Source: Candidatus Hydrogenedens sp. (GTDB lineage: Bacteria; Hydrogenedentota; Hydrogenedentia; Hydrogenedentales; Hydrogenedentaceae). From it: a DNA stretch of 64,000 nt. A program made the position numbers and the translations under genes. The DNA lies in contig JBMFRC010000013.1 in assembly GCA_049968235.1 (NCBI GenBank), positions 1 through 64,000 on the forward strand, read 5' to 3'. The notes below the pieces were generated by a model. It was not told the DNA's origin, did no database searches, and worked only from the letters and a program-made list of their open reading frames with translations. Shown here piece by piece: positions 172-21,930 of the stretch; position 1 is the first letter of the stretch, and the number at the start of each line of letters is the position of its first letter.

Positions 172-822
172 TAAATGATTCCCGCTTTCTCTCCGACAAA
201 AGAAGTGTAATGGAAAAGTAGGAACAGAAAACGAATAAGATACTATCTGCATATCGTACGTATGAAAATATAATTCAGTTTTAATGTTTATCTGATAATA
301 TTTTTTCTCAGGCAGGAATACCGATGTAGAACACATACAGGAGTGCTTGTGTTTCTACAAGCACAATCGGGATGGTTGTGTTAATATTACGAAGTAGCAC
401 AATTGATACAATTGAACTCGCCTTATGGTGTAAACATTCCTGCCTGTAAATATGTATATAGTGGAGGATAAACACAGCTGAAGCAAACAACATCGGTCCT
501 GTTCCCTGCTTATTCCGCTTGTAGATAGGATACAAACTGTAAGATGAACATAAATACGAATGTCTATGCATCTATAATCACAAGCAGGACGCTTGTTTTA
601 CTCTTCTAATGTGTTAATCAAAAAAGCACAAAAATTTGCAAGTAGTTCCTGGCTATTCTGAGAATGGTATCATTATTTATGGTATGAAGAGTGGATATAT
701 GGTTTCTATGAAACATAAAATAGATAGGGGTTGTCTAAAATCAAAAAATTGGAATAGTAATAAAATTCTGTTTTGTTTTTATAGTTTACGAAGAACAATA
801 TATAAGGAAGGTTTTATCGGTT

Positions 823-1785
823 GTGTTTAAATCATATTTATCAAGTTTTCTGGATGGTGTACAAAGCAGGATTTTATGGCAGAGTTTTTTTACAGCCCTT
901 TTTGTATTATTAGCTGTTCAGTTATTTACCATTGGTGTATTGAGTGAGCGGTTGCCTATTGAGGTATCCCGACCTTATTACCAGGAATTAAAAAGTTTTT
1001 CTTTTGAACCGAGGGAAAAATTTGTAATTGATAATGTAGATGGTACAGTAAATATTATACCGAGTAAAGGTTCGAAGATTATAGTTAATGCAGATGCACG
1101 TGGCTATCCCCATCGATATAAGGATAGAGAAAGGGTTAGCCGATTTTCAAAGAATTTATTTCAGATTATAGAAAGTGACCATAGTGTAAGCATAGAAACA
1201 GAACCTCGTCCACGACCGGAGGGAGTAGAATTTCGTGTAGATTATCAGATAACCGTACCAGAAGGTATTAATTTAGAGGTCAATGTTACGGGGAAAGGTA
1301 GTGTTTACATAACCGCAGGGGCAAAAAATGTTTCTGTTCATGCTAATCAAGGGGATATTACTATTATTCAACCCGAAGGGGAAGTTTTTGCCCAGACGAT
1401 ATTAGGTCGAATTGATGTAAGCCAGATAAAAGTATCTGCAGATGTTCAAACAATTAATGGTGCCATATATGCAACCGTGCTTCAAGGAAAAATTAAATCC
1501 AATTCTGTAAATGGAAATATTCAAGCAACTCTGTTAAGTGAGAATATTGAAACTTGTGATTTAAGTGTTACAAATGGTAACATAACATTAGCAATTCCTG
1601 AATTGTTTTCATCTAAAATTTCAGCGAAAACCTATAGAGGTTATATAACTTCGGAGTTCGCATTAGGAGAAATTGCTCCGGGAACTCAGGTTCGCCAGAT
1701 AGAAAAACAGATAGGTAAAGGGGTTGCGGACTTGAAATTAACATCCATGAATGGGAAAATATTAATATCGCGATTGGTTCAATAG
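823..1785 (+). CDS. DUF4097-type putative adhesin / envelope-stress protein (LiaG/YvlB-like) with an N-terminal TM anchor
   Basis: GTG start. It has a hydrophobic N-terminus followed by repeated short beta-strand units (VNGNIQATL, TNGNITLAI, INGAIYATV) typical of DUF4097. It lies immediately upstream of an ECF sigma factor. Confidence 0.55.
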   Translation: MFKSYLSSFLDGVQSRILWQSFFTALFVLLAVQLFTIGVLSERLPIEVSRPYYQELKSFSFEPREKFVIDNVDGTVNIIPSKGSKIIVNADARGYPHRYKDRERVSRFSKNLFQIIESDHSVSIETEPRPRPEGVEFRVDYQITVPEGINLEVNVTGKGSVYITAGAKNVSVHANQGDITIIQPEGEVFAQTILGRIDVSQIKVSADVQTINGAIYATVLQGKIKSNSVNGNIQATLLSENIETCDLSVTNGNITLAIPELFSSKISAKTYRGYITSEFALGEIAPGTQVRQIEKQIGKGVADLKLTSMNGKILISRLVQ

Positions 1786-1839
1786 AAACCAAAATAAATA
1801 TAAATAAGTCAAACTATCTAAAGAACAGAGGAAAAAAGA

Positions 1840-2472
1840 ATGTTTAAATGGTTAAGTTCTTCTTCGCAGTCAAGCGGAGCGATAGTGGCGTGTCCGGGTG
1901 TTGCGGAGAAGGTCTCAGCAGAAACTTCTGAACTTGAACTGGTACGAAAAAGTCAGAAAGGAGATACGGAGGCATTCGCTGAATTGGTGCGAAAATATCA
2001 ACAAATCGTTTATAACATTTCGTATCGGTTCATGCGTGATACAAACCTTGCAGAAGATATGGCTCAAGAATCTTTCATAAAGGCATTCAAACATATAAAA
2101 GGTTTTCGCGGAGATTGTGCCTTTTCGACATGGTTATACCGCGTAACATGTAGTGTTTGTCTGACAGAATTAAACAGAAGGAAGAAAAGAACCGAAGTTG
2201 AACTACAACCCAATACTCCAGTAGGTAGCGTGGAAACAAAAATTAGTGAATATGAAATTGCTGAAAAAATCCGCAAGTGTGTTACCAATCTTTCGGACCG
2301 ATATGCCACCGTTTTAACTCTCTATTATTTGAACGGTATTTCTTATGAAGAGATTGCTGAAATTATGGATATACCTGTGGGAACATTAAAAACATGGATG
2401 TTCCGCGCCCGTAAACAACTGCGGAAAATTGTAGAAAAGGAGATTTTTCCCAATGGTAGAGATTCCTCGTGA
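1840..2472 (+). CDS. ECF-type RNA polymerase sigma-70 family factor
   Basis: The region 2 / region 4 pattern (LVRKSQKGDTEAFAELVRKYQQIVYNISYRF; C-terminal HTH ISYEEIAEIMDIPVGTLKTWMFRARKQL) matches ECF sigma factors. There is an RBS agagga upstream. Confidence 0.85.
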   Translation: MFKWLSSSSQSSGAIVACPGVAEKVSAETSELELVRKSQKGDTEAFAELVRKYQQIVYNISYRFMRDTNLAEDMAQESFIKAFKHIKGFRGDCAFSTWLYRVTCSVCLTELNRRKKRTEVELQPNTPVGSVETKISEYEIAEKIRKCVTNLSDRYATVLTLYYLNGISYEEIAEIMDIPVGTLKTWMFRARKQLRKIVEKEIFPNGRDSS

Positions 2473-2866
2473 AGATGAATTGGATGCATTTATTGAATCG
2501 GTGTTAAAGGAAGAAAAACTTTTACCAACACCGGTTACTTTACATTCCAATGTAGTAAAAAGATTAAAATTACATGAATTAAAAGAAAGGGAACGAATTC
2601 GTTTCCGTTACCTAATGACAGGTTTTGTTATCACAGTTATGACTATTGTTTTAGGTGTTATTTTTTCCATATATTTTTATAAATGGTCTGTCATGTTCTG
2701 GTACGGTTCCGATGCAGGTTGGGGATATTGGGACTACTGCCGAACCTCTTTACAGACTTTCTGGACGAAATATCAGGGGACTTATTCTTTTTTGCTTACA
2801 TTAGGGGTTGCAATAAGCACTTTGGTTATATTACTTACCCCGTGGGCAAAATCTCATAAATTGTAA
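2453..2866 (+). CDS. Putative membrane anti-sigma factor, translationally coupled to the sigma factor by a 20-nt overlap
   Basis: The start overlaps the sigma-factor stop. There is a cytoplasmic N-terminal segment followed by hydrophobic helices (FVITVMTIVLGVIFSIYF). Position and topology are typical of anti-sigma partners. No domain was recognised. Confidence 0.45.
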   Translation: MVEIPREDELDAFIESVLKEEKLLPTPVTLHSNVVKRLKLHELKERERIRFRYLMTGFVITVMTIVLGVIFSIYFYKWSVMFWYGSDAGWGYWDYCRTSLQTFWTKYQGTYSFLLTLGVAISTLVILLTPWAKSHKL

Positions 2867-3012
2867 AATCCATATTATAACGAGGATAATTGCGGACCTT
2901 TTTCCTGTGTTATTTTGCAAAATAATTATGTCTTGTTTTATCTTAATATAATTGTTTTTCGTTATAATAGGGATTGAAAATTATATATAAACATAAAAGA
3001 TGAGACTTATCT

Positions 3013-6000
3013 ATGAGTAAGAAGGTATTTATTCCCCGTGGAATGATTCAAGCGATATTGGTATTGGTTCTTATTGTAATTATAGGGATAGCGCTTGCAT
3101 TTTTATTTGCACCACAAAAGCCCGAAGCCCCTCCGAGGTCAAATATCACTTATGAGAATAAACCTGCAGAGCAGTCCAATAAAAAACCGATGCAACAACA
3201 TGATGAAACCCTTCCCGATATAACTCCGCTTCCCACAGAGGCACAATCGAAAGTTCCCACTACTCAAGAGCCTTCAGGAATACAAGAAACAGCAATAACA
3301 CCGTCCAAAAGTGAGAGAAAAATCTTCACTATTTTAGTAAAGGTAGTAAATGGTCAAAACAATCAGCCTATAGCAGGTTCTATAGTTATGCTGTCATCAA
3401 CAACCGCAAGGAGATATAGACCTTCATTAGCAAGGTTTTCAGTAACATCCGGGCGAACTACTATTGAACCATACCATATACGGGGACCTTTTCGCACAAA
3501 TAACGAAGGTATAGCAGAAGTCATCGTTTATGATACCGATATAAAACAATTTAAGAAAGAAAATCTTCGTCTTATTGCAAAGTATGGAGATTATACTCAG
3601 GGAGAAGAACCCTTACCGGAACTGCAAGAAGAGAAACCAGTTGAAGTAACAATAACATTATACAAAGGCGGGTCAATTGAAGGGAGAGTTGTTGAGGAAG
3701 GTTCAGGGAAAGGTGCCAGTGGAGTTAAAATTATCATTGATGAAGGATTAAATCCCTTTAAACAACAGGGAAAAACTACGCCTTCAATACCTGTTGTAAG
3801 TGATGAAGAAGGGAATTTTAAGTTAGAAGGACTTATCCCAGGCACTTATGGTCTGTTAATCTCTATAGAGGGAACTCCTTATCTCCCCAACAAAAAAGAA
3901 TTTCCCTATAAAAAAGTTACAATTACATCTCCTCAGGATGTGCAGAAAGGGATAATTTTTAAGGTACTACCTGCGGGAATGATTTGGGGATATGTATTGA
4001 ACATGGCAGGAGAACCTGTTTCCGGTGCGGAAGTTTTATTAACTACCTCCCAAAGTATATTTTCACAAGCAGTAAGTGCCTTACTCACCCAAGAAGCACC
4101 TATCTCTACAGTTTCTGATAGCAATGGTTATTATGAAATGGGTGGTGTTCCATTGAATCAGGAATGGCGTTTATATGTAACTGGAACAAAGGGATATACG
4201 CCCCAATTAAGCGATGTGTTCGCTTTAACCCCATCGTATCGAGTAGTTCGTGTGGATATTAATGTTTTTGATGGGACATCCGTTTCCGGATTTGTTCGAG
4301 ATACCGCAGGGAATCCTGTATCACGAGCCGATATTATATGTATGCCCGAATATAGTGCCATTTTTTCACCACTTGACCAGCCCACAACCTTTCAAAATGC
4401 AACCACACAGGAAGATGGTTCTTATTCCATCTCCGGTTTACCCCAAGGAAATTATCAAATTATAGCATGGAAAGCGGGTTATAAAGTCCCCATTTCAGGG
4501 TATAAATTTGCCAGTGATGGATATTCAAAACTTACAGGTATTAATATTACTTTAGAGCCTGTTGAAGCCGGAGAATTATCTGTATTTGGGAAGGTAACAA
4601 ATCCCCAGGGACAGCCTATAAGTGGTGCTGACGTTCAATTGGAAGGAATAACTACTGCAGGGTTCCAGTCCGTAAATGAGTCAACCAAAACGGATAGTGC
4701 AGGAATGTATAAGATTGACGGAGTAAGTATTGGATATTATGAACTGCGAGTATCCTATCCCGGCTATGTAACCCGAACCCTATACAGTGTTCGCTTCAAC
4801 CAGCCCACTGATGTTATTCTGCAAACCTTTGGTGTAATTCGTGGTCAGGTTTTAGTCAAGGAAACGAACTCCCCTCTGGAACAGCCCTTCACAATTGAAG
4901 CGAAACCAGTACCCTTTGGGGCAGAGGAATCCGGTGACATTGCCTTTTCTCAATACACGACAGAAACCACAGAATCTTCATTTACAAACCCGGAAGGTAG
5001 ATTTGAACTTCAATTAGGTCCCGGAGCCTTTGAATTAACAGCAAGTTCCGATGAATATGTAGATGGTAAGACACAGGTAATGGTCCGCGAAGGGGAAACA
5101 GTAGAAGTAAAGATATATGTATCCAAACAGGGAGCGGTTGTTGCAGGAAAAGTTACTATTCGAGGAGGAGGGAATCCACAGGGAGCCAGAGTATTTTTAA
5201 TTCAATCCGAGTCCGAAACAGAAGCAATGACTCGAGCCCTTTTTGCTGAAGATTCCTCCGGTGGAAAAATGCAGATTGTTGGCGAAGACGGCACTTTCCG
5301 TTTTGAGTCGATATCAGAAGGAAATTATGTAATTATAGCCCAGCATGAGGGTTATGCTGTGGGTAACAGTGGTTTGATTTCTTTAAGTGCAGGACAGCGT
5401 ATGGAGAATGTTACAATAACTTTAGGTTCAGGCGGTGGATTAGAAGGTCATGTATATATAGATGGGCAGTTGGCTCCCAACGCAATGGTAATTATTTTAG
5501 GTCCCGGCGGAACAAAAACCACCAATACTGATGCTAATGGTTATTACTACTTTGAAGGGTTAACCAGTGGTGTATATCAGTTAGTTGCATCACCTGTGGG
5601 TTCCGTAGATACCGAAGATATTAATATGAGTGGCTTGTTTGAGACAAGAGGTGTTCCCGTTGAAATTAAAGAGGGACAGACAACCCGTTTCGACTTTGGT
5701 AAAATGGGTGGTGTGCGAATTGAAGGACGGTGTAACCCATCACCTCCCATTGGAGGTATCGCTTTACTCCGACCTCCGTCCGGGCGTCCTTTTGCCTTTG
5801 GACAGGTAGTAAATATGGACGAACTGGTAGGAAGCATGAGTGCGATGGTAAACCCCTTAGGTGGAAATTTTGTTTTTGAAGATGTTCCGACCGGCGAATG
5901 GCAGTTAGATATTTACTATGTTCAGTTTGGTCGTGGGGTTCGATATGTGTTTAGCACGGTCATTTCTGTGAAAGGAGATGAACCTGTTATGAATATTGAC

Positions 6001-6018
6001 TGTATGGTTCGGTTATAA
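3013..6018 (+). CDS. Large (1001 aa) N-terminally membrane-anchored protein with multiple carboxypeptidase-regulatory-like / prealbumin-fold repeat domains
   Basis: There is a TM anchor after the N-terminal K-rich segment. Repeated about 80-aa units end in motifs such as SDSNGYYEMGGVP, TDSAGMYKIDGVSIGYYEL, TDANGYYYFEGLTSGVYQL and GEDGTFRFESISEGNYVI, as in CarbopepD_reg_2 domains. Confidence 0.6.
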   Translation: MSKKVFIPRGMIQAILVLVLIVIIGIALAFLFAPQKPEAPPRSNITYENKPAEQSNKKPMQQHDETLPDITPLPTEAQSKVPTTQEPSGIQETAITPSKSERKIFTILVKVVNGQNNQPIAGSIVMLSSTTARRYRPSLARFSVTSGRTTIEPYHIRGPFRTNNEGIAEVIVYDTDIKQFKKENLRLIAKYGDYTQGEEPLPELQEEKPVEVTITLYKGGSIEGRVVEEGSGKGASGVKIIIDEGLNPFKQQGKTTPSIPVVSDEEGNFKLEGLIPGTYGLLISIEGTPYLPNKKEFPYKKVTITSPQDVQKGIIFKVLPAGMIWGYVLNMAGEPVSGAEVLLTTSQSIFSQAVSALLTQEAPISTVSDSNGYYEMGGVPLNQEWRLYVTGTKGYTPQLSDVFALTPSYRVVRVDINVFDGTSVSGFVRDTAGNPVSRADIICMPEYSAIFSPLDQPTTFQNATTQEDGSYSISGLPQGNYQIIAWKAGYKVPISGYKFASDGYSKLTGINITLEPVEAGELSVFGKVTNPQGQPISGADVQLEGITTAGFQSVNESTKTDSAGMYKIDGVSIGYYELRVSYPGYVTRTLYSVRFNQPTDVILQTFGVIRGQVLVKETNSPLEQPFTIEAKPVPFGAEESGDIAFSQYTTETTESSFTNPEGRFELQLGPGAFELTASSDEYVDGKTQVMVREGETVEVKIYVSKQGAVVAGKVTIRGGGNPQGARVFLIQSESETEAMTRALFAEDSSGGKMQIVGEDGTFRFESISEGNYVIIAQHEGYAVGNSGLISLSAGQRMENVTITLGSGGGLEGHVYIDGQLAPNAMVIILGPGGTKTTNTDANGYYYFEGLTSGVYQLVASPVGSVDTEDINMSGLFETRGVPVEIKEGQTTRFDFGKMGGVRIEGRCNPSPPIGGIALLRPPSGRPFAFGQVVNMDELVGSMSAMVNPLGGNFVFEDVPTGEWQLDIYYVQFGRGVRYVFSTVISVKGDEPVMNIDCMVRL

Positions 6019-6044
6019 TATGAGAAAAAATGAGGAGTTAAATT

Positions 6045-6968
6045 GTGGCTTTCATAGAGGTTGAAAATCTGACAGTATCCTATGGTGATACGGTTGCAAT
6101 TAACGATATATCCTTCCAATTAGAACCCGGTGTTATTGGACTTATTGGTCCCAATGGAGCAGGAAAAACTACCCTCATACGTACTTTCTTAGGGTTTATC
6201 CGTCCTGTAAAAGGAAAAATTATAATTTCGGGTTTATCACTACCCAAAGAAATATTAAAAGTTCGTGCTATTGTAGGACATATGCCCGAACGGGAAGTAG
6301 TAAGTCCAAAAGTAACAGCGGTTAGTTTTTTAGTTTATTGCGGTAGATTGGTCGGAATGTCTTATGTAGATGCACTGGAACGCTCACACGAAGTATTAAA
6401 TTATGTGGGACTGCAGGAAGCACGATACCGTCCTATGCAAACCTATTCTACCGGTATGTTACAACGAGTAAAATTAGCACAAGCCATTCTACATGACCCC
6501 AGAATTTTAATTTTAGACGAACCTACCAACGGATTAGACCCGGATGGTAGATTGGAAATGCTCCAACTGATAAAAGAGATTTCCGAACAACGAGGTGTTA
6601 CGACAATTTTATCTACGCATTTATTACCGGATGTCCAAAATCTATGTTCACAGATTCTTGTATTAAAAAAGGGAAAACTGGTTTACTGTGGAGACCTTAC
6701 TTCTCTGATTGATAGTCGAGTAAATCATTATGAAATTACTGCTCAACCGCCCATCGAACCTTTCAAAGAGGAATTATTAAAAATAGGAATAAAGTTTCAG
6801 GAATTACCTCAGGAGATTTTATCCCTGCAATTACCAGAAAATATTCAACAACAGGAAATATTTCGCTGTGCCCAGCGAGCAGGGACGATAATTCGTTCCT
6901 TTGTTCCTGCAGGAGGAAGTCTGGCGGAATTATTCCAGTCAAAACTTGAGAAGGAAGAGGTAAGTTAA
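6045..6968 (+). CDS. ABC transporter ATP-binding protein (ABC-2 / DrrA-like)
   Basis: Walker A GPNGAGKTT, signature YSTGMLQRV and Walker B ILILDEP are present. The start is GTG, with an RBS gaggag. Confidence 0.85.
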   Translation: MAFIEVENLTVSYGDTVAINDISFQLEPGVIGLIGPNGAGKTTLIRTFLGFIRPVKGKIIISGLSLPKEILKVRAIVGHMPEREVVSPKVTAVSFLVYCGRLVGMSYVDALERSHEVLNYVGLQEARYRPMQTYSTGMLQRVKLAQAILHDPRILILDEPTNGLDPDGRLEMLQLIKEISEQRGVTTILSTHLLPDVQNLCSQILVLKKGKLVYCGDLTSLIDSRVNHYEITAQPPIEPFKEELLKIGIKFQELPQEILSLQLPENIQQQEIFRCAQRAGTIIRSFVPAGGSLAELFQSKLEKEEVS

Positions 6969-6971
6969 TAT

Positions 6972-7862
6972 ATGCCTGTATATTCATTCACTTACAGACC
7001 CTTTGAGGGGAAATATCTTCGTCATTTCCGCTGGTGGGTTATTTTTCTTGAAGAGGTGCGATTATGGAATCGTTCGCGTATCTTCCACTTATTATTCCTT
7101 CTGGGAATGCTACAACCTCTGGCTCGTTTCCTTCAAATTCTTTCTTACAACTCCGCAATGCAGGACCCCAATCATCCATTAGCACCCCTTATTCGTTCTG
7201 TAACCTGGCTAAAAGTCAATGATGAACTTTATTACAATCTTATCCGGTTACAGGCACCTATTGTTTTGCTTCTTCTGCTATATGTCGGAGCCGGAACCGT
7301 ATGCACCGACAAAAAGAACCGTCTCTGGGATATATATTTTTCTAAACCCATTCACTGGTATGACTATCTTGTAGGGAAGTTATTATCTGTTATATTTTGT
7401 GGAATTTCTCTAACCTTTATACCTGCTGTGATACTTATGTTCGTGGACTATGCGACCAAAAAATCATCCACATGGACCGGACTGTTTTCTTATCTTCCCG
7501 TTATGGGCGATAGTCTTATGTTCTCATTGGTGTTGGTTGTCCCTTCCGCCTTAGCCATCATGTCCGCATCCAGTATCTTCCCCACAGAAAATATCACTGT
7601 AATAAGCGTAATAACTATTCTCATAGCCAATACCACTTTAGCAGGACTTCTATCTAACTTTATGAGGGATGGAAATTATATGCAGATTTCATTTCCCGTA
7701 GCCATATATTTTATGGGACAAAAAATCTTTAATGTAGACCGCAATATTTTTTTCCAAACCTCAGATATAAGTACATTGTCTATGTTCCTATACATATTCA
7801 GTGTATCCATTTTTTGTTTACTGATTTGTATACTTCAAGTTCGGAAAGCGGAAAGGGGTTAG
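6972..7862 (+). CDS. ABC-2 family transporter permease
   Basis: A polytopic hydrophobic protein lying directly between two ABC ATPase genes. Confidence 0.55.
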   Translation: MPVYSFTYRPFEGKYLRHFRWWVIFLEEVRLWNRSRIFHLLFLLGMLQPLARFLQILSYNSAMQDPNHPLAPLIRSVTWLKVNDELYYNLIRLQAPIVLLLLLYVGAGTVCTDKKNRLWDIYFSKPIHWYDYLVGKLLSVIFCGISLTFIPAVILMFVDYATKKSSTWTGLFSYLPVMGDSLMFSLVLVVPSALAIMSASSIFPTENITVISVITILIANTTLAGLLSNFMRDGNYMQISFPVAIYFMGQKIFNVDRNIFFQTSDISTLSMFLYIFSVSIFCLLICILQVRKAERG

Positions 7863-7865
7863 TTC

Positions 7866-8804
7866 ATGGATATACAAATTGAATCTAAAGAATTATCTAA
7901 ATGGTTCGGAGAGGTGGTGGCGTTAAATAATGTCTCGCTTCAAATTTCTACCGGTGTTATCGGTTTATTAGGACCGAATGGTGCCGGTAAATCTACATTT
8001 ATTAAATTATCATTAGGTTTATATCGTCCCAGTCGAGGTGAAATTCGTATTTTGGGTGAAAAACCACGCAATAATTTTCATACACTTCAAAAAGTAGGCT
8101 ATTGTCCGGAGATGGACCACTTTGTAGAAGAAGTAAGCGGTTATGAATTTTTATACTGGTTAGCGCGATATTCAGGTTACAAGCCCAAAGTTGCCCGAAA
8201 ACAGGTGGAGTATGCTGTAGAACGGGTCAGTATGACCGAACGGATGTATGACCCTATTGCCACTTATAGTAAAGGGATGCGTCAGCGTATAAAAATCGCT
8301 CAGGCTCTACTCCATGACCCTGCAATCTTATTCTTAGATGAACCTATGAACGGGCTCGACCCAACCGCTCGTGAAGAACTGTTTGAGTTAGTTATTTCTC
8401 TCGGAAACGAAGGAAAAACCGTTATCTTTTCAAGTCATGTATTGCATGAAGTTGAACGCGTTACGGATACTGTAATTTTGATTTATAACGGAAGAGTGCT
8501 GGCTTTCGGAAAAATTCGTGAGATACGTGACCTCATTAAGAATCACCCCCGCACCATTGTTATCGAAACATTAGAACCAAAGAAGGTTTATCAAATATTA
8601 AGTGTAGATGAAAATATCACTACGGTAAATTTTGATACCCAGTCTTTAACAGTGCATACATTAGACCCTATGCAAACATTTAAACATATCAATGAGATAT
8701 TCCTGGATGGGAAAGTCACTATATATAGTTTCCGTTGTGCGGACGAAGATTTACAGTCCGTGTTCCGATACTTAATTTCAACTCATATCCCACGAGGGTT
8801 ATAA
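7866..8804 (+). CDS. ABC transporter ATP-binding protein (second copy)
   Basis: Walker A GPNGAGKST, signature YSKGMRQRI and Walker B ILFLDEP are present. Confidence 0.85.
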   Translation: MDIQIESKELSKWFGEVVALNNVSLQISTGVIGLLGPNGAGKSTFIKLSLGLYRPSRGEIRILGEKPRNNFHTLQKVGYCPEMDHFVEEVSGYEFLYWLARYSGYKPKVARKQVEYAVERVSMTERMYDPIATYSKGMRQRIKIAQALLHDPAILFLDEPMNGLDPTAREELFELVISLGNEGKTVIFSSHVLHEVERVTDTVILIYNGRVLAFGKIREIRDLIKNHPRTIVIETLEPKKVYQILSVDENITTVNFDTQSLTVHTLDPMQTFKHINEIFLDGKVTIYSFRCADEDLQSVFRYLISTHIPRGL

Positions 8805-8810
8805 AATCAA

Positions 8811-9661
8811 TGAAGATATTGAAAATTAAAAACATAGGTAGTCTTCTTTTTGATATAAAAACATCTTTCCTTCATGCTTTAACAATTACCCTGCGACGCG
8901 ACCGTTTTTTACTGATGTCCGCAATATGTGTTCTTCCTGTGGTAATTCCTATCTTTGTGGCATTATTTTCCCGAGCCATGTTCCGCGAAAGTGGTCTGGA
9001 AATTTTTATCCGCCTATCCGAACAAATATATGTTCACACACTTACTCCATTACTGGCGTTGTTTATCGGTTTGATTGGAATTCGTGAAGAAGTAGATTCT
9101 TTAACAATCGTGTATCTACTTACAAGACCTGTATCGAAATTAGCATGGATACTCGGTCGGTTCCTTGCTTATATGCTTATTTCTACTTTTCTACTAACCA
9201 TAGGGCTTTTCTTAACATTTTTTGCCTGTGTCGTTTTGGGGAGTATCTATGTAGATTTTATTGGTATAGGTATGTTACTGCAATATTTAGGTGTAGGAAT
9301 TATGGGATTGATGGGGTATGGTGCAATCAGTTTTATGTTAGGCTGTGCTACAAATTACCCTATTATTATTGGTGTTATACTATTCTTCGGTTGGGAGAAA
9401 ATCGCAAATGTAATTCCCGGCATAGCAGATTTCTGGACGATACAAAAGTATTTAGACTCTATGTTTCCGGTTCTTGCCTCTCAGCGATACAATCGAGCAG
9501 TAATTACTGTTATTGGTAGTTTCCAGAAAGAACTGTTTTTCGTTAGTCCACAACGGGCTTTTATGACTATCACGATTATGAGTATTTTATTCCTGATGTT
9601 AGCAATCTGGTTTGTCCTCTGGCGTGAATTTACAAAAGACCGTGTTGTCGGCACTCGCTAA
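8811..9661 (+). CDS. ABC-2 family transporter permease (second copy)
   Basis: The ATG at 8811 lies just after the ATPase stop. The ORF-track start at 8735 overlaps the ATPase and is probably an over-extension. The product has multiple TM helices. Confidence 0.55.
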
Positions 9662-9670
9662 AATCTATGT

Positions 9671-10147
9671 TCAGGGAATGCTTGCCAGCACTTCCCGGGC
9701 ATGTCCTTCCGGTTTTACTTTCCTCCAGACTTTAATTATTTTCCCATCAGGACCAATCAAAAATGTGGAACGAATAATCCCATAACTAATCTTACCATAC
9801 ATATTTTTCTCACCCCAGGCACCATATTTTTCAGCAATCTGATGTCCTTCATCAGAAAGCAAATGGAAACTGAGACTATATTTATCGGCAAAGGAACAAT
9901 GAGATTCCAAAGAATCAGGACTAACCCCCAGAACAACTACGTTCCTCTTCTCAAATTCTGATGTGAACTCTTGAAATCCCTTTGCTTCTATTGTACAACC
10001 TGGGGTATCATCCTTCGGATAAAAATACAACACAACATATTTCCCACGGAAATCTGATAACTGAATTTTTTCACCACGATGGCTTTTTAATGAAATTTTT
10101 GGGGCAGAATTTCCTTCTTTTATAGGTTGAATTTTGGGTTTGCTCAT
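9671..10147 (-). CDS. bcp: Thiol peroxidase Bcp (peroxiredoxin, thioredoxin fold)
   Basis: YFYPKDDTPGCTIEAKGF contains the peroxidatic Cys in a TPGCT motif. The 158-aa size matches Bcp. Confidence 0.8.
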   Translation of the reverse strand: MSKPKIQPIKEGNSAPKISLKSHRGEKIQLSDFRGKYVVLYFYPKDDTPGCTIEAKGFQEFTSEFEKRNVVVLGVSPDSLESHCSFADKYSLSFHLLSDEGHQIAEKYGAWGEKNMYGKISYGIIRSTFLIGPDGKIIKVWRKVKPEGHAREVLASIP

Positions 10148-10283
10148 AGTAATTTCTCCTTACATTCAATTAACATAGATAACAAGGTCTGATAATAATT
10201 CATTCCTGAATTTATTTTCTGCACAGAATTTGGTAATATACATCATATATATTTATATTAAAAAAAATAAAAAGGTGCTCATT

Positions 10284-11135
10284 ATGGCTGAATGGAAACC
10301 GATGCAAATTGTAGAAAAGATTTCTACACTACCTACATTACCAACTACAGTATCCGCAATACTCAAAGAGATGGCAAATCCGGATAGTTCTGCCATCGGG
10401 CTTGCCAAATTAATTAGTTCTGACCAGAGTTTGGCTGGAGGGATTCTTCGTGTGGTTAACTCTGCTTATTATAATTTCCCACGAAAAATAGGTAGTCTAA
10501 CGGATGCTATTGTATTATTAGGTTATAAAGGTGTCCGTAGTATTGTTTTATCTGTAACAGCCTTTCGTTTCTTTTCCAATTCTTTCGACTACCTCGATAG
10601 AAAAAAATTATGGAATCATGCCCTTGCCTGTGCAATTATTTCCGATTTGTTAAATCGGAAATTAAAAGTGGCAGAAAACAATGCTTTTGAAGCAGGTCTG
10701 CTTCATGATATTGGGAAGGTTGTTTTTGATTATCTTGACCCGGAATTGTTTCGGGGTGCAATTAAAGAAGCAAAACGGAAAGAACTCCCGTTAATATCTG
10801 TAGAACCATCTCATTTTGGGACAGACCATTCCGAAGTAGGCTCCTTATTGGCAAATCATTGGAATTTGCCTGAAAACATTGTACAGGCAATTCGTTTTCA
10901 TCATCATCCTGAAAAATCCACTCCGGAATTCTTACCCGTAACATGTTTGGTGGCTTTATCCAATGCAATTACATACGCATTAGAAATGGGTGATTCTGTT
11001 AGTGAAACTATGCCCGAATTACCTCCAATAGTGTTTGAAACTTTAAAAATAGAAGAAACTTTTATAGAAGAGTCCCATGAAGAGGTAAGTCAAAGAGTAG
11101 AAACAGGGCTGGAAGCATTTGCTTCTATTAGTTGA
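10284..11135 (+). CDS. HDOD domain signalling protein
   Basis: LPTLPTTVSAILKEMANPDSSAIGLAKLISSDQSLAGGILRVVNSAYY and downstream HD-like histidines (HDIGKVV, FHHHPE) match HDOD. The likely true start is the ATG at 10284 with an RBS aaaggtg; the track start at 10230 is an AT-rich extension. Confidence 0.7.
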   Translation: MAEWKPMQIVEKISTLPTLPTTVSAILKEMANPDSSAIGLAKLISSDQSLAGGILRVVNSAYYNFPRKIGSLTDAIVLLGYKGVRSIVLSVTAFRFFSNSFDYLDRKKLWNHALACAIISDLLNRKLKVAENNAFEAGLLHDIGKVVFDYLDPELFRGAIKEAKRKELPLISVEPSHFGTDHSEVGSLLANHWNLPENIVQAIRFHHHPEKSTPEFLPVTCLVALSNAITYALEMGDSVSETMPELPPIVFETLKIEETFIEESHEEVSQRVETGLEAFASIS

Positions 11136-11493: not shown

Positions 11494-12423
11494 ATGAATC
11501 ATGTCTTCGGACCTGTCTATTCCCGAAGATTAAGTAAATCGTTGGGAATAGACTTGGTTCCATTTAAAACTTGCACTCAAGACTGTGTATATTGCCAGTT
11601 AGGTCCAACGACCTGTAAATTGTTGGAACGGGCCTCTTTTTATAATGTTGGAGAAGTAATCAGCGAATTAAGATTGAAACTGGAAACGGTTTCTCCCAAT
11701 TTTATAACTATAGCAGGTTCAGGTGAGCCTACTTTATGTAAGGAATTAGGAACGGTAATTTCAGAAATAAAAAAAATTACTCCTATTCCTTTGGCTGTCC
11801 TCACAAATGGTTCATTGCTATATCAATCGGATGTTCGAAAAGATTTAATTCAAGCAGATATTGTTTGCCCTTCGTTAGATGCAGGGGATGACTATACTTT
11901 CCAGAAAGTCAACCGACCTATTCCTACCATTGATTTTGAAACTTTTTTGAATGGATTAATTCAATTTCGTAGTGAATATTCAGGAAAGATATGGCTGGAA
12001 GTATTATTAGTAAGAGGGATTACGGATACACAGGAAGAGGTTATTAAAATTGCTCAGTGCTCTACCCAGATAAATCCTGACCGCATCCATTTAAATACAG
12101 TAACCCGTCCTCCCGCGGATGCTTCTATAACAGGTTTAACCCCTTCCGAACTGGATAAGTTTGCATCGTTATTTACTCCAACGGCAGAAGTAATAGCAGA
12201 ATATCCAACGGTTGCCGAAGTTATATCTTCACTAAAAAACATACAGCAGGAAGATATTTTAAATGTAATCCAGAGACATCCTTGTTCTTTACCAGAATTA
12301 TCCTTTGCCCTGGATGCTTCAGAGGAAATGATAAAACCGGTATTAAAAGATTTAATACAACAAGGAAAGGTAGAAGTTTTTAATATTCGGGGGAGAGAAT
12401 TATTTCGTTATAGAAACAAATAA
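11494..12423 (+). CDS. Radical SAM protein with a C-terminal winged-helix-like tail; function unknown
   Basis: The N-terminal CTQDCVYCQ is a CxxxCxxC radical-SAM cluster motif. GSGEPTL is a SAM-binding-like motif. It lies adjacent to the ferredoxin. Confidence 0.7.
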   Translation: MNHVFGPVYSRRLSKSLGIDLVPFKTCTQDCVYCQLGPTTCKLLERASFYNVGEVISELRLKLETVSPNFITIAGSGEPTLCKELGTVISEIKKITPIPLAVLTNGSLLYQSDVRKDLIQADIVCPSLDAGDDYTFQKVNRPIPTIDFETFLNGLIQFRSEYSGKIWLEVLLVRGITDTQEEVIKIAQCSTQINPDRIHLNTVTRPPADASITGLTPSELDKFASLFTPTAEVIAEYPTVAEVISSLKNIQQEDILNVIQRHPCSLPELSFALDASEEMIKPVLKDLIQQGKVEVFNIRGRELFRYRNK

Positions 12424-12479: not shown

Positions 12480-13424
12480 TTACTCTACCACAAAAATATA
12501 GGGTCCCCAACTATTGGCTTCATCTGCTTTGGGTAATTTATTTGTTGCGTGAATCTTTACACCCGGTCTCACTTCTACATCGTATTCAAGACCCGCTTCA
12601 CCTTTACGCCTCGCTTCAAAATGGAAATCCAATTGCCCATTATCATTCAAATCACGCGTGGCTAAGAAATAAGTCCGTAGCGCAAGAATGTGATATACAT
12701 TCCTCGGAGGTTCTGTCCCTAAGGGTTCCGGAACAACACCTGCGGTTGAGCCTCCTGGTCCTACACTAATAAGGACATACGCATCGTAAACCGAAGCAGG
12801 AAAGGTAATATCGCTTATCATCGGATGCGTCGGGTCCCAGGACTCTGCATAAAAGAAGCCATTCTCAATCCAATAACGGCGGGCTTTTTGAAATTGCCGT
12901 TTGTTCACAGGAGCATATACAAATGGCCGATTTTCCATATCTCTTAAGCGAGTTAACTCTCCGCCGGGATTGTTGTTCCCACGATACAATTCATCCGGAA
13001 AAGTATAAACACCAGTCGCCTGACTTTTTATCCCTATAGGTAAAAATTCCATAAGACCAATTCGACCATCACGATTGGTATCAAAACCATCGGAGAACTC
13101 ATCCAGATACTTACGGTCCCCATGAACTTTCACGAGAGCGGTATAAGGTCGTAGCATAAATAATTGTTCATCAGATATTTGCCCTACCTGATAATCTTTT
13201 GAGTCCCATTTCACAAAACCATAGCCCGGGGGATAAGTATTGTTGTCTGTAAAGTAAGATGTCATTGCTGTGCGAAATTGTAAAAATGTATTATCCATCC
13301 GCCGTAATTTAGCTCTTTCCCGAACCCGGGGCAAAATTGCAAAAGTAAATCCTGCGAGAATCGCAATTATTGCTATTACCGTGAGTAATTCAATAAGTGT
13401 AAAACCTTTTATCCTCTTTTTCAT
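12480..13424 (-). CDS. Prepilin-type N-terminal cleavage/methylation domain protein with a DUF1559-like body
   Basis: The N-terminus MKKRIKGFTLIELLTVIAIIAILAG is a class III signal / N-methylation motif (G-FTLIELL). The following domain resembles DUF1559 of the PVC superphylum. Confidence 0.7.
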   Translation of the reverse strand: MKKRIKGFTLIELLTVIAIIAILAGFTFAILPRVRERAKLRRMDNTFLQFRTAMTSYFTDNNTYPPGYGFVKWDSKDYQVGQISDEQLFMLRPYTALVKVHGDRKYLDEFSDGFDTNRDGRIGLMEFLPIGIKSQATGVYTFPDELYRGNNNPGGELTRLRDMENRPFVYAPVNKRQFQKARRYWIENGFFYAESWDPTHPMISDITFPASVYDAYVLISVGPGGSTAGVVPEPLGTEPPRNVYHILALRTYFLATRDLNDNGQLDFHFEARRKGEAGLEYDVEVRPGVKIHATNKLPKADEANSWGPYIFVVE

Positions 13425-20254: not shown

Positions 20255-21748
20255 TTATTTCTCTTCTCTGTTTTTGAAAAGATAGTCTGTCATAGATTGT
20301 TTATGTTGAAATAAGACTATAGGTCTATAGGCTACTCTTTTCCCACCGGAATAAGGGCTTTTATCTTCCTGAAAAGCGTCAGATGAATAGAATTTAAAAA
20401 GCAGGTCTATATCTAAGGGAGTATATAAAGATAAACATATCCCATGGTTGGATGATGGTTGTTCAAGCCATTGATTGGTAAAATCAGAAATGTTTATTTT
20501 TATCCATCCTGTCCGAAATGGTAATTCCCAGATATTGAGAGGGTCATCCGAAGTATGAATTGGGGTATTCCAATTTGTTTCTAAAGAAGGAATACCATCA
20601 ATACCTTCAAACTCATCCGAAAGCCCATCTCCTTCTTCCCATACATCATTTATCTTTTGAACTTTTATACGAACAGGCTCAGACCCAATTCTTTTTATCT
20701 CTGCCAGATATAACCAGATAATGGCTTCTTTCAAATCTTCCTTTTTCCATTCTTTCGGCAAATCAAATTGAATTAGAATTTCTCGTCTTTGATTTTGTTC
20801 TATCCCGAGTGTTAGGTAAGGTTCTTTACCTGCATTATTTTCTGGTTTTCCTTGTATGATGGTGGTATCGCGAATGGACTGGATAGGAATAAAATCATTA
20901 TTCTTCCGGACATAAGGTGCATATTCCAGACTATTCTGGATAAAATAATCTCCCACAATTTTTGCGAAATAAAATTTCATAAATGTACTTACCGCAGATG
21001 CATTATGGTCAATACCCCCGTAATAATAATCTTTGTAATGCTGATATACCCAGTTATGTTTTTGTTTCATTATGTAAAATTGGGTCATGGCAACAAGTGG
21101 TCCGGAGGCAAGATAGCCCTGTTCACGGGTACAGCCTGCTTTTAATTGTTCTAAAGTTACCTGTTTATTTATTTTCTGGAAGCATGACAATATCGTTTCA
21201 AAGGGCCAGAATAGTTGTAAGGGTATGGGAGGAACAATTTCCTTTTCTGCGAACAGAAAAATATCCGTAGAGAATTCTGCTTCTCCATGAGAAGTTCCTC
21301 CTTCTTCTCGTGCAGAGGTTAAGAAGGAACGATGCTTTGCTTCATCGAAGTGCCAGGGAATATCGGAAATATCATGCACAATCATCCCGAGAAAAAATGC
21401 CAACTCTTTCCGTGCTTCTGCAGGGGGTAATTGGGGAAGTTTTTGTTGCAATACTTCCACGTATGCGGTTATAAAAGGGTTCCAGTGGGAAGTTTCTGCA
21501 CAATCGGGATTTATTTCTCCATAGCCCCAATCAGGGAAGGAACAACCTGCATAGAAAGCGGGATATACTTCTTTATCTTTGAACAACTCTGCTAATTCAA
21601 GATACTGTTTTTCCCATTCCATAATATATTTCTGAATAGCCTCCATGCCTATCTCTATATGAGCCCGAACACCAATGGCATCAGTCCTGATACATAGAAA
21701 TAAACAGAGGAGAATGAATAAGTATATATTTCTGTTTTTCATTCGCAT
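20255..21748 (-). CDS. Secreted protein with an N-terminal zinc-dependent phospholipase C / P1-nuclease-like domain and a C-terminal DNRLRE-like domain
   Basis: There is a signal peptide. Motifs CSFPDWGY, SHWNPF and GMIVHDISDIPWHFDE parallel the STYPDYD / HFWDPD / HYFGDIDTPYH metal-ligand motifs of Zn-PLC. The C-terminal NQRREILIQFDLP resembles the DNRLRE motif. Confidence 0.45.
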   Translation of the reverse strand: MRMKNRNIYLFILLCLFLCIRTDAIGVRAHIEIGMEAIQKYIMEWEKQYLELAELFKDKEVYPAFYAGCSFPDWGYGEINPDCAETSHWNPFITAYVEVLQQKLPQLPPAEARKELAFFLGMIVHDISDIPWHFDEAKHRSFLTSAREEGGTSHGEAEFSTDIFLFAEKEIVPPIPLQLFWPFETILSCFQKINKQVTLEQLKAGCTREQGYLASGPLVAMTQFYIMKQKHNWVYQHYKDYYYGGIDHNASAVSTFMKFYFAKIVGDYFIQNSLEYAPYVRKNNDFIPIQSIRDTTIIQGKPENNAGKEPYLTLGIEQNQRREILIQFDLPKEWKKEDLKEAIIWLYLAEIKRIGSEPVRIKVQKINDVWEEGDGLSDEFEGIDGIPSLETNWNTPIHTSDDPLNIWELPFRTGWIKINISDFTNQWLEQPSSNHGICLSLYTPLDIDLLFKFYSSDAFQEDKSPYSGGKRVAYRPIVLFQHKQSMTDYLFKNREEK

Positions 21749-21930
21749 ATTTTATTTCTACATAAAATAATTTTGTATATAAGACTACCTGTTTACCTTT
21801 TTAGTTTCCTTTTTGTTAAAAAAGAATAGGTAAAACGGATGACAACAGATAAAAAACATCTCCATATAAACGATACTTCATAGTTACAAATAGGCAATAT
21901 TTTGCAAGGTAAATAATGATTAAAGAGTAT

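What the first reader, a model, noticed from the sequence alone, without database searches (positions are those of the whole stretch)
823..9661. Same-strand ECF sigma module: DUF4097, ECF sigma, anti-sigma, a 1001-aa surface repeat protein, and two tandem ABC-2 exporters
Nine consecutive + strand genes are separated by very short gaps or overlaps. They are a DUF4097 protein, an ECF sigma factor, a translationally coupled membrane anti-sigma, a 1001-aa membrane-anchored protein made of repeated carboxypeptidase-regulatory-like beta-sandwich domains, then two ATPase/permease pairs. DUF4097 proteins such as LiaG/YvlB are established members of envelope-stress regulons, and ECF sigma plus anti-sigma pairs autoregulate adjacent operons. 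The pairing of a giant surface repeat protein with two dedicated exporters looks like a sigma-controlled envelope or surface-structure export and maintenance module, not a nutrient importer. There are no solute-binding proteins and the permeases are ABC-2 type.
Basis: partly seen in the sequence, partly recalled or inferred. Interest (0 to 1): 0.55.

Follow-up and report, generated by a model that had tools for sequence, protein, structure and literature searches.

The report
ECF sigma unit beside ABC-rod operon
In an uncultured Hydrogenedens bacterium, a self-regulating stress sigma factor operon sits next to an operon for a long periplasmic repeat protein and two ABC pumps; the pairing is kept across the phylum, but there is no sign that the sigma factor directly drives the pumps.

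Summary
The genes are real, but there are eight, not nine. They are a Toastrack/DUF4097 membrane protein, an RpoE/SigW-like ECF sigma, a 137-aa two-TM protein, a 1001-aa membrane-anchored protein with nine transthyretin-like repeats, and two ATPase/permease pairs of the ABC-2 (type V) kind.

The organism is Candidatus Hydrogenedens. The same collinear block occurs in about 22 non-redundant Hydrogenedentota loci with unrelated flanks.

New findings:
- An ECF-type promoter motif, TGAAAC-N17-19-GTC, lies upstream of the DUF4097 gene in 19 of 20 loci. In this genus it also lies upstream of the sigma gene. It never lies upstream of the 1001-aa gene in these loci.
- The 1001-aa gene has its own conserved TATAAT region. 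In 6 of 22 relatives a terminator-like hairpin precedes it.
- At least 14 related loci carry the rod-plus-ABC genes without the sigma trio.
- Two outgroup loci have the four ABC genes followed directly by a DUF4097 gene.
- The 137-aa "anti-sigma" has no detectable anti-sigma homology.

Verdict: these are two coupled but separable units. A single sigma-driven export operon is not shown. I propose the Toastrack protein as the link between them. This is a new variant of known kinds and of moderate interest.

The parts
710..738 (+). ECF-type promoter motif P1 (GAAAC-N18-GTCTAA), about 85 nt upstream of the DUF4097 start codon
   Evidence: Only 2 matches to GAAACN{17,19}GTCWAA occur in the 64-kb window. 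The motif GAAAC-N17-19-GTC lies within 250 nt upstream of DUF4097 in 19 of 20 non-redundant loci, against a background of 0.06 per kb. The synteny breakpoint against L006 and L008 falls at 697-710.
823..1785 (+). Toastrack/DUF4097 membrane protein: 320 aa, GTG start, one N-terminal TM at residues 22-40
   Evidence: Pfam DUF4097 scores 39.4 bits against a cut-off of 22.9. LiaX and LiaG models hit far below their cut-offs. Orthologues share 33-91% identity.
1785..1813 (+). Second ECF-type promoter motif P2 (GAAAC-N18-GTCAAA), overlapping the DUF4097 stop codon and 27 nt upstream of the sigma ATG
   Evidence: It is conserved at the same place in L003, L006, L008 and L011. Distant lineages lack it because their DUF4097 and sigma genes overlap by 4 nt.
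1840..2472 (+). ECF sigma factor, 210 aa, RpoE/SigW/AlgU-like
   Evidence: Sigma70_r2 and Sigma70_r4_2 hit. TIGR02937 is above its cut-off; SigW and RpoE equivalog models are below theirs. The nearest solved chains are AlgU, SigW and RpoE. It shares 59-97% identity with many Hydrogenedentota proteins.
2453..2866 (+). 137-aa two-TM protein, putative anti-sigma of a new family; overlaps the sigma gene by 20 nt
   Evidence: It has no family hit. Only 41 representatives exist among 1.84 billion proteins, all 97-158 aa (most 132-158). Conserved motifs are LDxxIExAL..EP.RP.P..LH.RV..ER.RFR, then a TM, then G.PGG.G..DY, then a TM. The AF2 model has pLDDT 80.6 with an N-terminal helix and a long helix running into TM1.
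2933..2969 (+). Conserved promoter-like block upstream of the 1001-aa gene: GTTTTATCTT at 2935-2944 and TTCGTTATAAT, with TATAAT at 2963-2968
   Evidence: An alignment of seven congeneric loci shows the block conserved inside an otherwise variable 146-nt spacer. No ECF motif is present and no terminator was found in this genus.
3013..6018 (+). 1001-aa protein: N-terminal signal-anchor (residues 14-32), conserved juxtamembrane motif FAPxKPxxPPxSxIxYE, Pro-rich linker, then nine transthyretin-like (CarboxypepD_reg) repeats
   Evidence: Pfam result. Repeat starts fall near residues 106, 221, 323, 423, 523, 627, 709, 810 and 919. It is conserved over its full length at 35-89% identity. The N-terminal motif is kept in loci with and without the sigma trio.
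6045..6968 (+). ABC ATPase 1 (307 aa), with a C-terminal extension
   Evidence: ABC_tran hits. DrrA and GldA subfamily-level hits are below cut-off. It is 38% identical to ATPase 2.
6972..7862 (+). Permease 1 (296 aa), with a NosY-like type V fold
   Evidence: It has no Pfam hit. The AF2 model has pLDDT 85 and pTM 0.82. The best Foldseek PDB matches are NosY (7o0z_D and others, TM 0.61-0.69), then PmtD and ABCG. The family is narrow.
7866..8804 (+). ABC ATPase 2 (312 aa)
   Evidence: ABC_tran hits. The nearest solved NBDs are ABCA1/7/4 NBD2 and NosF.
8810..9661 (+). Permease 2 (283 aa from the ATG at 8810), ABC2_membrane_4
   Evidence: Pfam scores 37.5 bits against a cut-off of 27. The start matches the one called in L001 and relatives. 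It is not detectably similar to permease 1.

Best explanation
The region holds two adjacent units that are functionally coupled but separable.

**Unit 1 (710-2866)** is an autoregulated envelope-signalling operon. It encodes a membrane-anchored Toastrack/DUF4097 protein, an RpoE/SigW-like ECF sigma and a 137-aa two-TM protein, all translationally coupled. The 137-aa protein most likely holds the sigma at the membrane through its about 50-residue N-terminal helical region. When released, the sigma recognises TGAAAC-N18-GTCxAA promoters in front of the DUF4097 gene and, in this genus, in front of its own gene.

**Unit 2 (about 2933-9661)** has its own housekeeping-type promoter. It encodes an inner-membrane-anchored periplasmic rod of nine transthyretin-like domains and two NosFY/PmtCD-like type V ABC ATPase/permease pairs. 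Together these would form an ATP-driven envelope machine that extracts or exports a membrane-associated substrate, or does mechanical work on the rod.

**Proposed link.** I propose that the Toastrack protein couples the two units. It would dock on the ABC machine and report its state to the sigma/anti-sigma pair, by analogy with LiaF-LiaS or Bce-type transporter-coupled signalling. The sigma would then raise expression of its own operon and, by read-through in this genus, possibly of unit 2.

**Shown:** the genes, domains, folds, conservation, promoter motif and separability. **Inferred:** anti-sigma function, Toastrack bridging, the substrate and the direction of signalling.
For: - **Genes and domains:**
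- **Conservation:** all eight genes are collinear in close loci. Seven of seven distant loci found through the sigma gene carry at least DUF4097, sigma, the ~140-aa protein, the rod, ATPase 1 and permease 1. Five of the seven also carry ATPase 2 and permease 2. Flanking genes are unrelated between loci, and in this genome an inversion breakpoint falls at 697-710.
- **ECF promoter motif:** it lies upstream of DUF4097 in 19 of 20 loci against a background of 0.06 per kb. It is conserved although the surrounding sequence cannot be aligned and GC content differs.
- **Sigma type:** the sigma is closest to AlgU, SigW and RpoE. Their promoters share the -35 AAC; the -10 most resembles the RpoE/AlgU TCxxA element (established knowledge).
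- **Translational coupling:** sigma and the 137-aa gene overlap by 20 nt in the window. In distant loci DUF4097 and sigma overlap by 4 nt.
- **Unit 2 is separate:** no ECF motif lies upstream of the rod gene (0 of 23 loci); there is a conserved TATAAT block; terminator-like sites occur in 6 of 22 loci against 1 of 220 controls; 14 loci have the rod and four ABC genes without the trio and with unrelated upstream genes.
- **Toastrack-ABC link without a sigma:** L078 and L085 have the four ABC genes followed directly by a DUF4097 gene. Ravi et al. [quoted passage not shown]
- **ABC type:** the permease 1 fold matches NosY and PmtD; the ATPases match NosF and ABCA NBDs.
Against: - There is no experimental or transcript evidence.
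- The 137-aa protein has no detectable similarity to any anti-sigma domain. Its model shows two N-terminal helices, not a class I four-helix domain.
- Toastrack topology is unresolved. Flank charges in distant orthologues favour a cytoplasmic domain, while the window protein is ambiguous.
- Nothing shows physical contact between the Toastrack protein and the ABC proteins or the anti-sigma.
- The direction of information flow (input or output) is not established. In the window's genus no terminator separates the units, so plain co-transcription remains possible.
- Many relatives keep unit 2 without an adjacent unit 1, so the coupling is not obligatory, or it can act in trans.
Confidence: 0.45

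Rival explanations
1. First reader's model. One sigma-dependent operon in which the ECF sigma switches on the 1001-aa protein and two dedicated exporters. These would build, export or maintain a surface structure, with the repeat protein as the surface component or the cargo.
For: - All genes are on the same strand and tightly packed.
- No terminator was detected between the 137-aa gene and the 1001-aa gene in the window or its congeners, so read-through from the ECF promoters is possible.
- Every sigma orthologue examined sits next to the rod and at least one ABC pair.
- One trio-less locus (L067) has the ECF motif upstream of its rod gene.
Against: - No ECF motif lies upstream of the rod gene in 0 of 23 trio-bearing loci and in 17 of 18 trio-less loci.
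- There is a conserved TATAAT-type block upstream of it.
- Terminator-like hairpins occur in 6 of 22 relatives.
- Unit 2 exists alone in at least 14 loci.
- The repeat protein has an uncleaved-looking N-terminal signal-anchor with a positively charged N-tail. It would therefore use Sec insertion, not ABC export, and there is no evidence that it reaches the surface.
Confidence: 0.2
2. Detoxification or immunity module. The ABC-2 pairs would expel membrane-active peptides, lipids or antibiotics, like PmtABCD, lantibiotic-immunity ABC-2 systems or SigW-controlled transporters. The ECF sigma would be a SigW-like antimicrobial stress regulator, and the repeat protein a periplasmic shield or binding scaffold.
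For: - The ATPase-permease-ATPase-permease gene order is the same as in PmtABCD. NCBIfam gives hits to PmtA, PmtC, the lantibiotic-protection ATPase and DrrA.
- PmtD is among the top fold matches.
- Permease 2 belongs to ABC2_membrane_4.
- The sigma's best NCBIfam hit is SigW.
Against: - All these hits are far below the family cut-offs.
- No peptide, bacteriocin or biosynthetic genes are nearby.
- Strict phylum-wide conservation with a 1000-aa periplasmic rod is not typical of accessory resistance cassettes.
- The best fold match is NosY, not PmtD.
Confidence: 0.15
3. No functional link. A conserved RpoE-like housekeeping stress-sigma operon simply lies beside an unrelated rod-and-ABC operon through inherited gene order.
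For: The units are separable. Unit 2 occurs without unit 1 in at least 14 loci. Loci with and without the trio are interleaved in a rough NJ tree. The units have separate promoters, and terminators in some relatives.
Against: - Adjacency persists over divergence down to about 33% identity while every flank differs. This holds in seven of seven distant sigma-anchored loci and across a local inversion whose breakpoint is right at the promoter.
- An independent DUF4097-ABC association occurs in the outgroups L078 and L085.
- Toastrack-ABC operons are described in the literature.
Confidence: 0.1

Closest known systems
RpoE/AlgU/SigW-type ECF sigma with a membrane anti-sigma (RseA, MucA, RsiW)
   Same: - It has the two-domain sigma (r2 + r4_2).
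- These are its nearest solved relatives.
- The promoter has the same architecture as the RpoE/AlgU/SigW type: -35 GAAC/GAAAC and a -10 with the RpoE/AlgU-like TCxxA core (here GTCxAA; SigW uses CGTA).
- It sits in front of its own operon, and a membrane protein is co-translated downstream.
   Different: - It scores below the SigW and RpoE equivalog cut-offs.
- The downstream protein is two-pass, 137 aa, without an ASD or zinc-finger motif, and has only a loop of about 35 residues outside the membrane.
- A Toastrack gene leads the operon.
- No RseB, RseC or protease genes are present.
Toastrack (DUF4097/DUF2154) envelope-stress partners: LiaG, LiaF, VraT, YvlB, LiaX
   Same: It is a membrane-anchored Toastrack domain co-encoded with a signal-transduction pair. 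Toastrack-ABC-transcription-factor operons are described by Ravi et al. 2024 (PMC11237479).
   Different: - Here the partner is an ECF sigma, not a two-component system or a PadR/GntR regulator.
- There are no PspA, PspC or LiaI-LiaF-TM genes.
- It scores far below the LiaG and LiaX model cut-offs.
NosFY / NosDFY(L) type V ABC complex
   Same: The best fold match for permease 1 is NosY (TM 0.61-0.69). NosF is among the best bacterial NBD matches. Both are ABC-2 systems co-encoded with a large periplasmic non-SBP partner, which suggests ATP-driven work on a periplasmic protein.
   Different: There are no NosD, NosL or NosZ genes. The partner is a transthyretin-repeat rod, not a beta-helix. There are two different ATPase/permease pairs. 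Sequence identity to NosY is only 11-13%.
Staphylococcus PmtABCD (PmtCD structure 6xjh)
   Same: The gene order is ATPase-permease-ATPase-permease. The fold is type V, and PmtD is among the top fold matches.
   Different: NCBIfam PmtA and PmtC scores are about 106 bits against cut-offs of 350 and 375. There is no peptide-toxin context. This is a putatively Gram-negative organism of another phylum, and a large repeat protein is co-encoded.
Bacillus subtilis sigY-yxlCDEFG (an ECF sigma operon that includes the type V ABC YxlFG)
   Same: An ECF sigma, small membrane regulators and an ABC-2/type V transporter lie in one same-strand cluster. YxlF2G2 is classed as type V in PMC11466899. The operon content is from my own knowledge.
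   Different: The SigY model scores 111.9 bits against a cut-off of 194. That operon has one ABC pair and no Toastrack or repeat protein. Here the ABC genes appear to have their own promoter.
Eukaryotic NOMO / bacterial multi-CarboxypepD_reg rods
   Same: It is a membrane-anchored chain of transthyretin-like beta-sandwiches. Pfam NOMO_3rd, NOMO1-like_2nd and EMC7 models give sub-threshold to moderate hits.
   Different: The anchor is N-terminal rather than C-terminal. Homology is at domain level only. A spacer or ruler role is speculation.

Membership tests
ECF (group 4) sigma-70 family | Only sigma regions 2 and 4 are present, and the protein scores above the family model cut-off | tested here: met
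   Sigma70_r2 scores 56.3 bits and Sigma70_r4_2 scores 64.3 bits. TIGR02937 scores 108.5 bits against a cut-off of 42.9. No region 1 or region 3 hits.
ECF (group 4) sigma-70 family | An ECF-type promoter (-35 AAC, -10 CGT/GTC) in front of its own operon, implying autoregulation | tested here: met
   GAAAC-N17-19-GTC lies upstream of the operon in 19 of 20 loci, against a background of 0.06 per kb. This is motif evidence only; activity was not tested.
RpoE or SigW equivalogs | A score above the NCBIfam equivalog cut-off | tested here: not met
   SigW NF007223 scores 139.7 bits against 209. RpoE TIGR02939 scores 133.9 bits against 236.
Class I anti-sigma factors (ASD / zf-HC2, RsiW/RseA-like) | An N-terminal four-helix anti-sigma domain detectable by profile, often with an HxxxCxxC motif | tested here: not met
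   The protein and 32 family members have no Pfam or NCBIfam hit at E<=1 to any anti-sigma family, apart from one DUF3379 hit at E 0.06. A PDB profile search found no anti-sigma match (E<=10: seven weak, unrelated hits). No HxxxCxxC motif is present. The AF2 model shows two N-terminal helices.
Anti-sigma factor (functional sense) | Binds and inhibits the cognate sigma | not testable with these tools
   Only context is available: the 20-nt overlap with the sigma gene, strict co-occurrence, and a cytoplasmic N-terminal helical region followed by a TM.
Toastrack / DUF4097 | A Pfam PF13349 match above the gathering score | tested here: met
   39.4 bits against 22.9, covering profile positions 3-246 of 247.
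LiaG / LiaX equivalogs | A score above the NCBIfam cut-off | tested here: not met
   LiaG scores 32.6 bits against 285. LiaX scores 45.8 bits against 350.
ABC-2 / type V ABC transporter | An ABC_tran ATPase together with a permease of the ABC-2 family or type V fold, and no solute-binding protein | tested here: met
   ABC_tran hits twice. Permease 2 hits ABC2_membrane_4 at 37.5 bits against 27. The permease 1 fold matches NosY, PmtD and ABCG. No SBP gene lies in the block.
NosDFY(L) N2O-reductase maturation system | NosD beta-helix partner, NosL, and a nosZ context | tested here: not met
   None of these occur in the block or its neighbours. The similarity is at fold and NBD level only.
PmtABCD | A score above the PmtA/PmtC equivalog cut-offs | tested here: not met
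   PmtA scores 106.2 bits against 350. PmtC scores 106 bits against 375. Only the gene order is shared.
GldAFG gliding-motility ABC | A GldA equivalog score, with GldF and GldG partners | tested here: not met
   GldA TIGR03522 scores 183-185 bits against 402.6. No GldG/ABC_transp_aux hit.
Bce-type sensing transporter | An FtsX-type 10-TM permease with a large extracellular domain, plus a two-component system | tested here: not met
   The permeases have about six TMs and are ABC-2 type. There is no kinase or response regulator in the block. This system is cited only as a functional analogy.
Anti-phage defence systems (PADLOC) | System-specific proteins beyond generic ATPase similarity | tested here: not met
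   The ABC ATPases hit only generic AAA/ABC-like models; the sigma has one marginal hit (DRT RTasHel, E 2e-4); the other five proteins have none.

The most novel reading that the evidence does not exclude
The nine-domain periplasmic rod and the type V ABC pairs could form an ATP-driven device that probes or maintains the envelope. Its mechanical or transport state would be read by a Toastrack adaptor and passed to a previously unrecognised class of minimal two-TM anti-sigma factor. That would be a transporter-coupled ECF signalling pathway, serving as the Hydrogenedentota counterpart of the RpoE envelope-stress system.
Probability: 0.15. Interest if true: 0.7.

Novelty: new variant of a known kind. 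Interest (0 to 1): 0.42.

Why it matters
Hydrogenedentota have no cultured, genetically tractable members, and their envelope biology is unknown. This block is one of the few multi-gene arrangements kept across the phylum, with a sigma factor more than 59% identical throughout.

The analysis offers several testable items:
- A concrete promoter motif, TGAAAC-N18-GTCxAA, that could be used to define the regulon in complete genomes.
- A candidate new anti-sigma family of about 140 aa with two TMs.
- A recurrent Toastrack-ABC-2 association that supports the proposal that Toastrack proteins couple membrane machines to transcription.

If the coupling is real, it adds a transporter-linked input route to ECF signalling. 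If it is not, the region is an ordinary stress-sigma operon next to an uncharacterised ABC operon.

Tried and rejected
- **Exact look-up of the 1001-aa protein:** not on record. Neighbours were reached through permease 1 and the sigma instead.
- **Structure prediction of the 1001-aa protein:** Its architecture therefore rests on Pfam and my own repeat HMM.
- **Literature:** no paper holds DUF4097, ECF and anti-sigma together. The Hydrogenedentes plus sigma search gave nothing relevant. The ECF reclassification paper does not mention DUF4097, CarboxypepD or Hydrogenedentes. One search was uninformative.
- **Ninth gene:** the ORF at 636-830 was rejected because it is not conserved.
- **TTG start at 8735 for permease 2:** rejected in favour of the ATG at 8810.
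- **Sigma-54 promoter upstream of the rod gene:** this was prompted by rpoN lying next to it in L057 and L062. No convincing match was found.
- **ECF motif upstream of the rod gene:** absent.
- **Defence system:** rejected.
- **Obligate heterotetramer of both ABC pairs:** not supported as obligatory. L087 and L089 lack the second pair, and PmtCD is solved as its own complex. However, the four-gene order is old: the outgroup L017 has it too.
- **PDB sequence searches:** nothing was found for permease 1, permease 2 or the DUF4097 protein.
- **L013, the most divergent congener:** it lacks an exact match to the ECF motif. A GGAAT variant is possible but unconvincing.

Full report
**1. Observation**

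The window carries consecutive + strand ORFs at 823-1785, 1840-2472, 2453-2866, 3013-6018, 6045-6968, 6972-7862, 7866-8804 and 8735/8810-9661.

- Toastrack/DUF4097 scores 39.4 bits against a cut-off of 22.9.
- The ECF sigma has Sigma70_r2 and Sigma70_r4_2, and TIGR02937 is above its cut-off.
- The 1001-aa protein has CarboxypepD_reg at 217 bits in 7 stretches. My repeat HMM finds nine roughly 100-residue repeats after an N-terminal TM and a Pro-rich linker.
- Both ATPases hit ABC_tran.
- Permease 2 hits ABC2_membrane_4.

Corrections:
- There are eight genes, not nine. The only candidate for a ninth, ORF 636-830, is not conserved.
- Permease 1 has no family hit.
- The 137-aa 'anti-sigma' has no family hit.
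- The spacer at 2866-3013 is 146 nt, which is not short.
- Permease 2 probably starts at 8810.

**2. Source and conservation**

Permease 1 is 100% identical to a protein of a Candidatus Hydrogenedens MAG.

The eight-gene block is collinear in all sufficiently long loci of the genus, at 60-97% identity. Seven distant Hydrogenedentota loci were reached through sigma homologues. There the sigma is 59-67% identical and the other proteins 30-57% (measured for L014-L016). All seven keep the block from DUF4097 through permease 1. Two of them, L087 and L089, lack the second ABC pair. Flanking genes differ in every lineage.

Within the genus, the window differs from L006 and L008 by an inversion. Its breakpoint maps to 697-710, exactly at the start of the promoter motif described below. 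The block together with its promoter therefore behaves as a unit.

**3. Promoters and transcription units**

Footprinting of the intergenic regions revealed TGAAAC-N18-GTCTAA at 710-738, upstream of DUF4097, and GAAAC-N18-GTCAAA at 1785-1813, upstream of the sigma gene. These are the only two matches in the 64-kb window.

The motif GAAAC-N17-19-GTC lies within 250 nt upstream of the DUF4097 gene in 19 of 20 non-redundant loci. This includes high-GC lineages where nothing else aligns. The background rate is 0.06 per kb.

The motif resembles RpoE/AlgU/SigW promoters (established knowledge). It also fits the sigma's nearest relatives. Autoregulation is therefore well supported at motif level.

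The picture upstream of the 1001-aa gene is different:
- No ECF motif is found there in 0 of 23 trio-bearing loci, and in only 1 of 18 trio-less loci.
- The spacer in this genus holds a conserved GTTTTATCTT...TTCGTTATAAT block, with TATAAT at 2963-2968.
- In 6 of 22 relatives a terminator-like hairpin with a T-run follows the 137-aa gene, against 1 of 220 control pieces.
- No such terminator is seen in the window's genus, so read-through there remains possible.

**4. Separability**

A metagenome scan with the permease 1 profile returned 69 loci.

- At least 14 loci have the rod gene and all four ABC genes with 2.5 kb or more of upstream sequence and no sigma trio. Their upstream genes are unrelated: a phosphoesterase, DUF5696, RpoN, a beta-helix protein, a symporter and glycosidases.
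- Four loci have the ABC genes without the rod.
- A rough NJ tree interleaves loci with and without the trio.
- The outgroup L017 also has the ATPase-permease-ATPase-permease order.
- In L078 and L085 the four ABC genes are followed directly by a DUF4097 gene (Pfam 37.4 bits for the L078 protein; the L085 one rests on a 27%-identity tblastn match).

This independent Toastrack-ABC pairing agrees with the Toastrack-ABC-transcription-factor operons noted by Ravi et al. 2024 (PMC11237479). It is the main reason I propose the Toastrack protein as the coupling element.

**5. The parts**

*Sigma.* It is RpoE/SigW/AlgU-like but scores below the equivalog cut-offs.

*137-aa protein.*
- Its family has only 41 representatives among 1.84 billion proteins, all 97-158 aa (most 132-158).
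- It has a conserved N-terminal motif, two TMs and a G.PGG.G..DY outer loop.
- Its AF2 model (pLDDT 80.6) shows a short helix and a long helix that runs into TM1.
- No anti-sigma homology was detected.
- It is a plausible new minimal anti-sigma, but that is an inference from context.

*Toastrack protein.* It has one N-terminal TM. Flank charges in distant orthologues favour a cytoplasmic domain, as Ravi et al. argue, but the window protein is ambiguous.

*Rod.* It has a positively charged N-tail and a signal-anchor, so the repeats are predicted to be periplasmic. A juxtamembrane motif, FAPxKPxxPPxSxIxYE, is conserved with or without the trio.

*ABC pairs.*
- The ATPases are 38% identical to each other, and both keep canonical motifs.
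- Their nearest solved NBDs are ABCA1/7/4 and NosF.
- The permeases are not detectably similar to each other.
- The permease 1 model (pLDDT 85) best matches NosY, then PmtD and ABCG. This is the type V fold.

**6. Mechanism**

The best-supported reading is two coupled but separable units:
- an autoregulated Toastrack-sigma-putative anti-sigma operon;
- a separately promoted operon for a periplasmic transthyretin-repeat rod and two type V ABC pairs.

I propose that the Toastrack protein relays the state of the ABC machine to the sigma/anti-sigma pair. Any sigma control of the ABC operon in this genus would be by read-through at most.

The shown steps are the genes, folds, motif, conservation and separability. 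The inferred steps are anti-sigma activity, the Toastrack bridge, the substrate and the direction of signalling. Each is weighed in its own section.

**7. Comparison and novelty**

The region combines known kinds in an arrangement I did not find described. These kinds are an RpoE-like ECF sigma, a Toastrack partner, NosFY/Pmt-like ABC-2 systems and a CarboxypepD_reg rod. It also includes a candidate new anti-sigma family.

It fails the membership tests for the SigW, RpoE, SigY, LiaG, LiaX, PmtA, PmtC and GldA equivalogs and for NosDFY. It is not a defence system.

I rate it a new variant of a known kind, of moderate interest.

Noticed in passing
L014:8190-8594(-), L015:8525-8947(-), L087:8502-8939(-), L088:8526-8996(-), L089:8508-8945(-), L090:8536-8952(-); also L032, L033, L083: A conserved small membrane protein of 134-156 aa (motif WLDHRVKMALLEKLE.KPELL) is transcribed divergently from the DUF4097 gene in distant Hydrogenedentota loci. 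It shares the promoter region with that gene. It has no Pfam hit, and it is absent from the 64-kb window and its genus. It may be an extra member of the module.
   Followed up: partly
window 697-710 and 20306-23985: Compared with the congeners L006 and L008, the window has an inversion. The DprA-AnmK-Zn_dep_PLPC segment, which lies directly upstream of the block in those genomes, maps inverted to 23985-20306. The breakpoint coincides with the -35 element of the ECF-type promoter.
   Followed up: yes
L087 and L089: Two distant lineages keep DUF4097, sigma, the ~140-aa protein, the rod, ATPase 1 and permease 1 but lack ATPase 2 and permease 2 at the locus. The two ABC pairs can therefore be separated.
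   Followed up: partly
L078:4259-8869 and L085: An outgroup arrangement has ATPase-permease-ATPase-permease followed directly by a DUF4097/Toastrack gene, with no sigma and no rod.
   Followed up: partly
L067:1186-1216: This is the only trio-less locus with a good ECF-type motif (GAAACGCTCGCGCAAAAGATAACGTCTAAAT), about 110 nt upstream of its rod gene. It hints that the sigma may act in trans on the rod-ABC operon in some lineages.
   Followed up: no
window 9671-10147(-), 10230-11135(+), 11494-12423(+), 12480-13424(-): A Bcp/PrxQ peroxiredoxin gene converges on the end of the block in most of the genus. An HDOD-HD protein, a small ferredoxin, a radical SAM protein and a prepilin-type N-methylation-motif protein follow it. 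This order is conserved in L001 and L006, but L003 has PFK instead.
   Followed up: partly
window 3013-6018, residues 343-363 and 443-460 of the 1001-aa protein: Two insertions inside repeats 3 and 4 are invariant or nearly so across the phylum: LLTTSQSIFSQAVSALLTQEAP and CMPEYSAIFSPLDQPTTF. They stand out from the otherwise structural Gly/Pro/Tyr conservation and may be binding sites.
   Followed up: no
L017:9086-9989: In the high-GC outgroup contig, the ATPase 1 homologue is split by an apparent frameshift near 9580. This could be an assembly error or a pseudogene.
   Followed up: no
window 580-596 (+): A terminator-like hairpin (ACAAGCAGGACGCTTGT followed by a T-run) lies about 110 nt upstream of the ECF promoter motif. 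The first 800 nt of the window have no conserved ORF.
   Followed up: no
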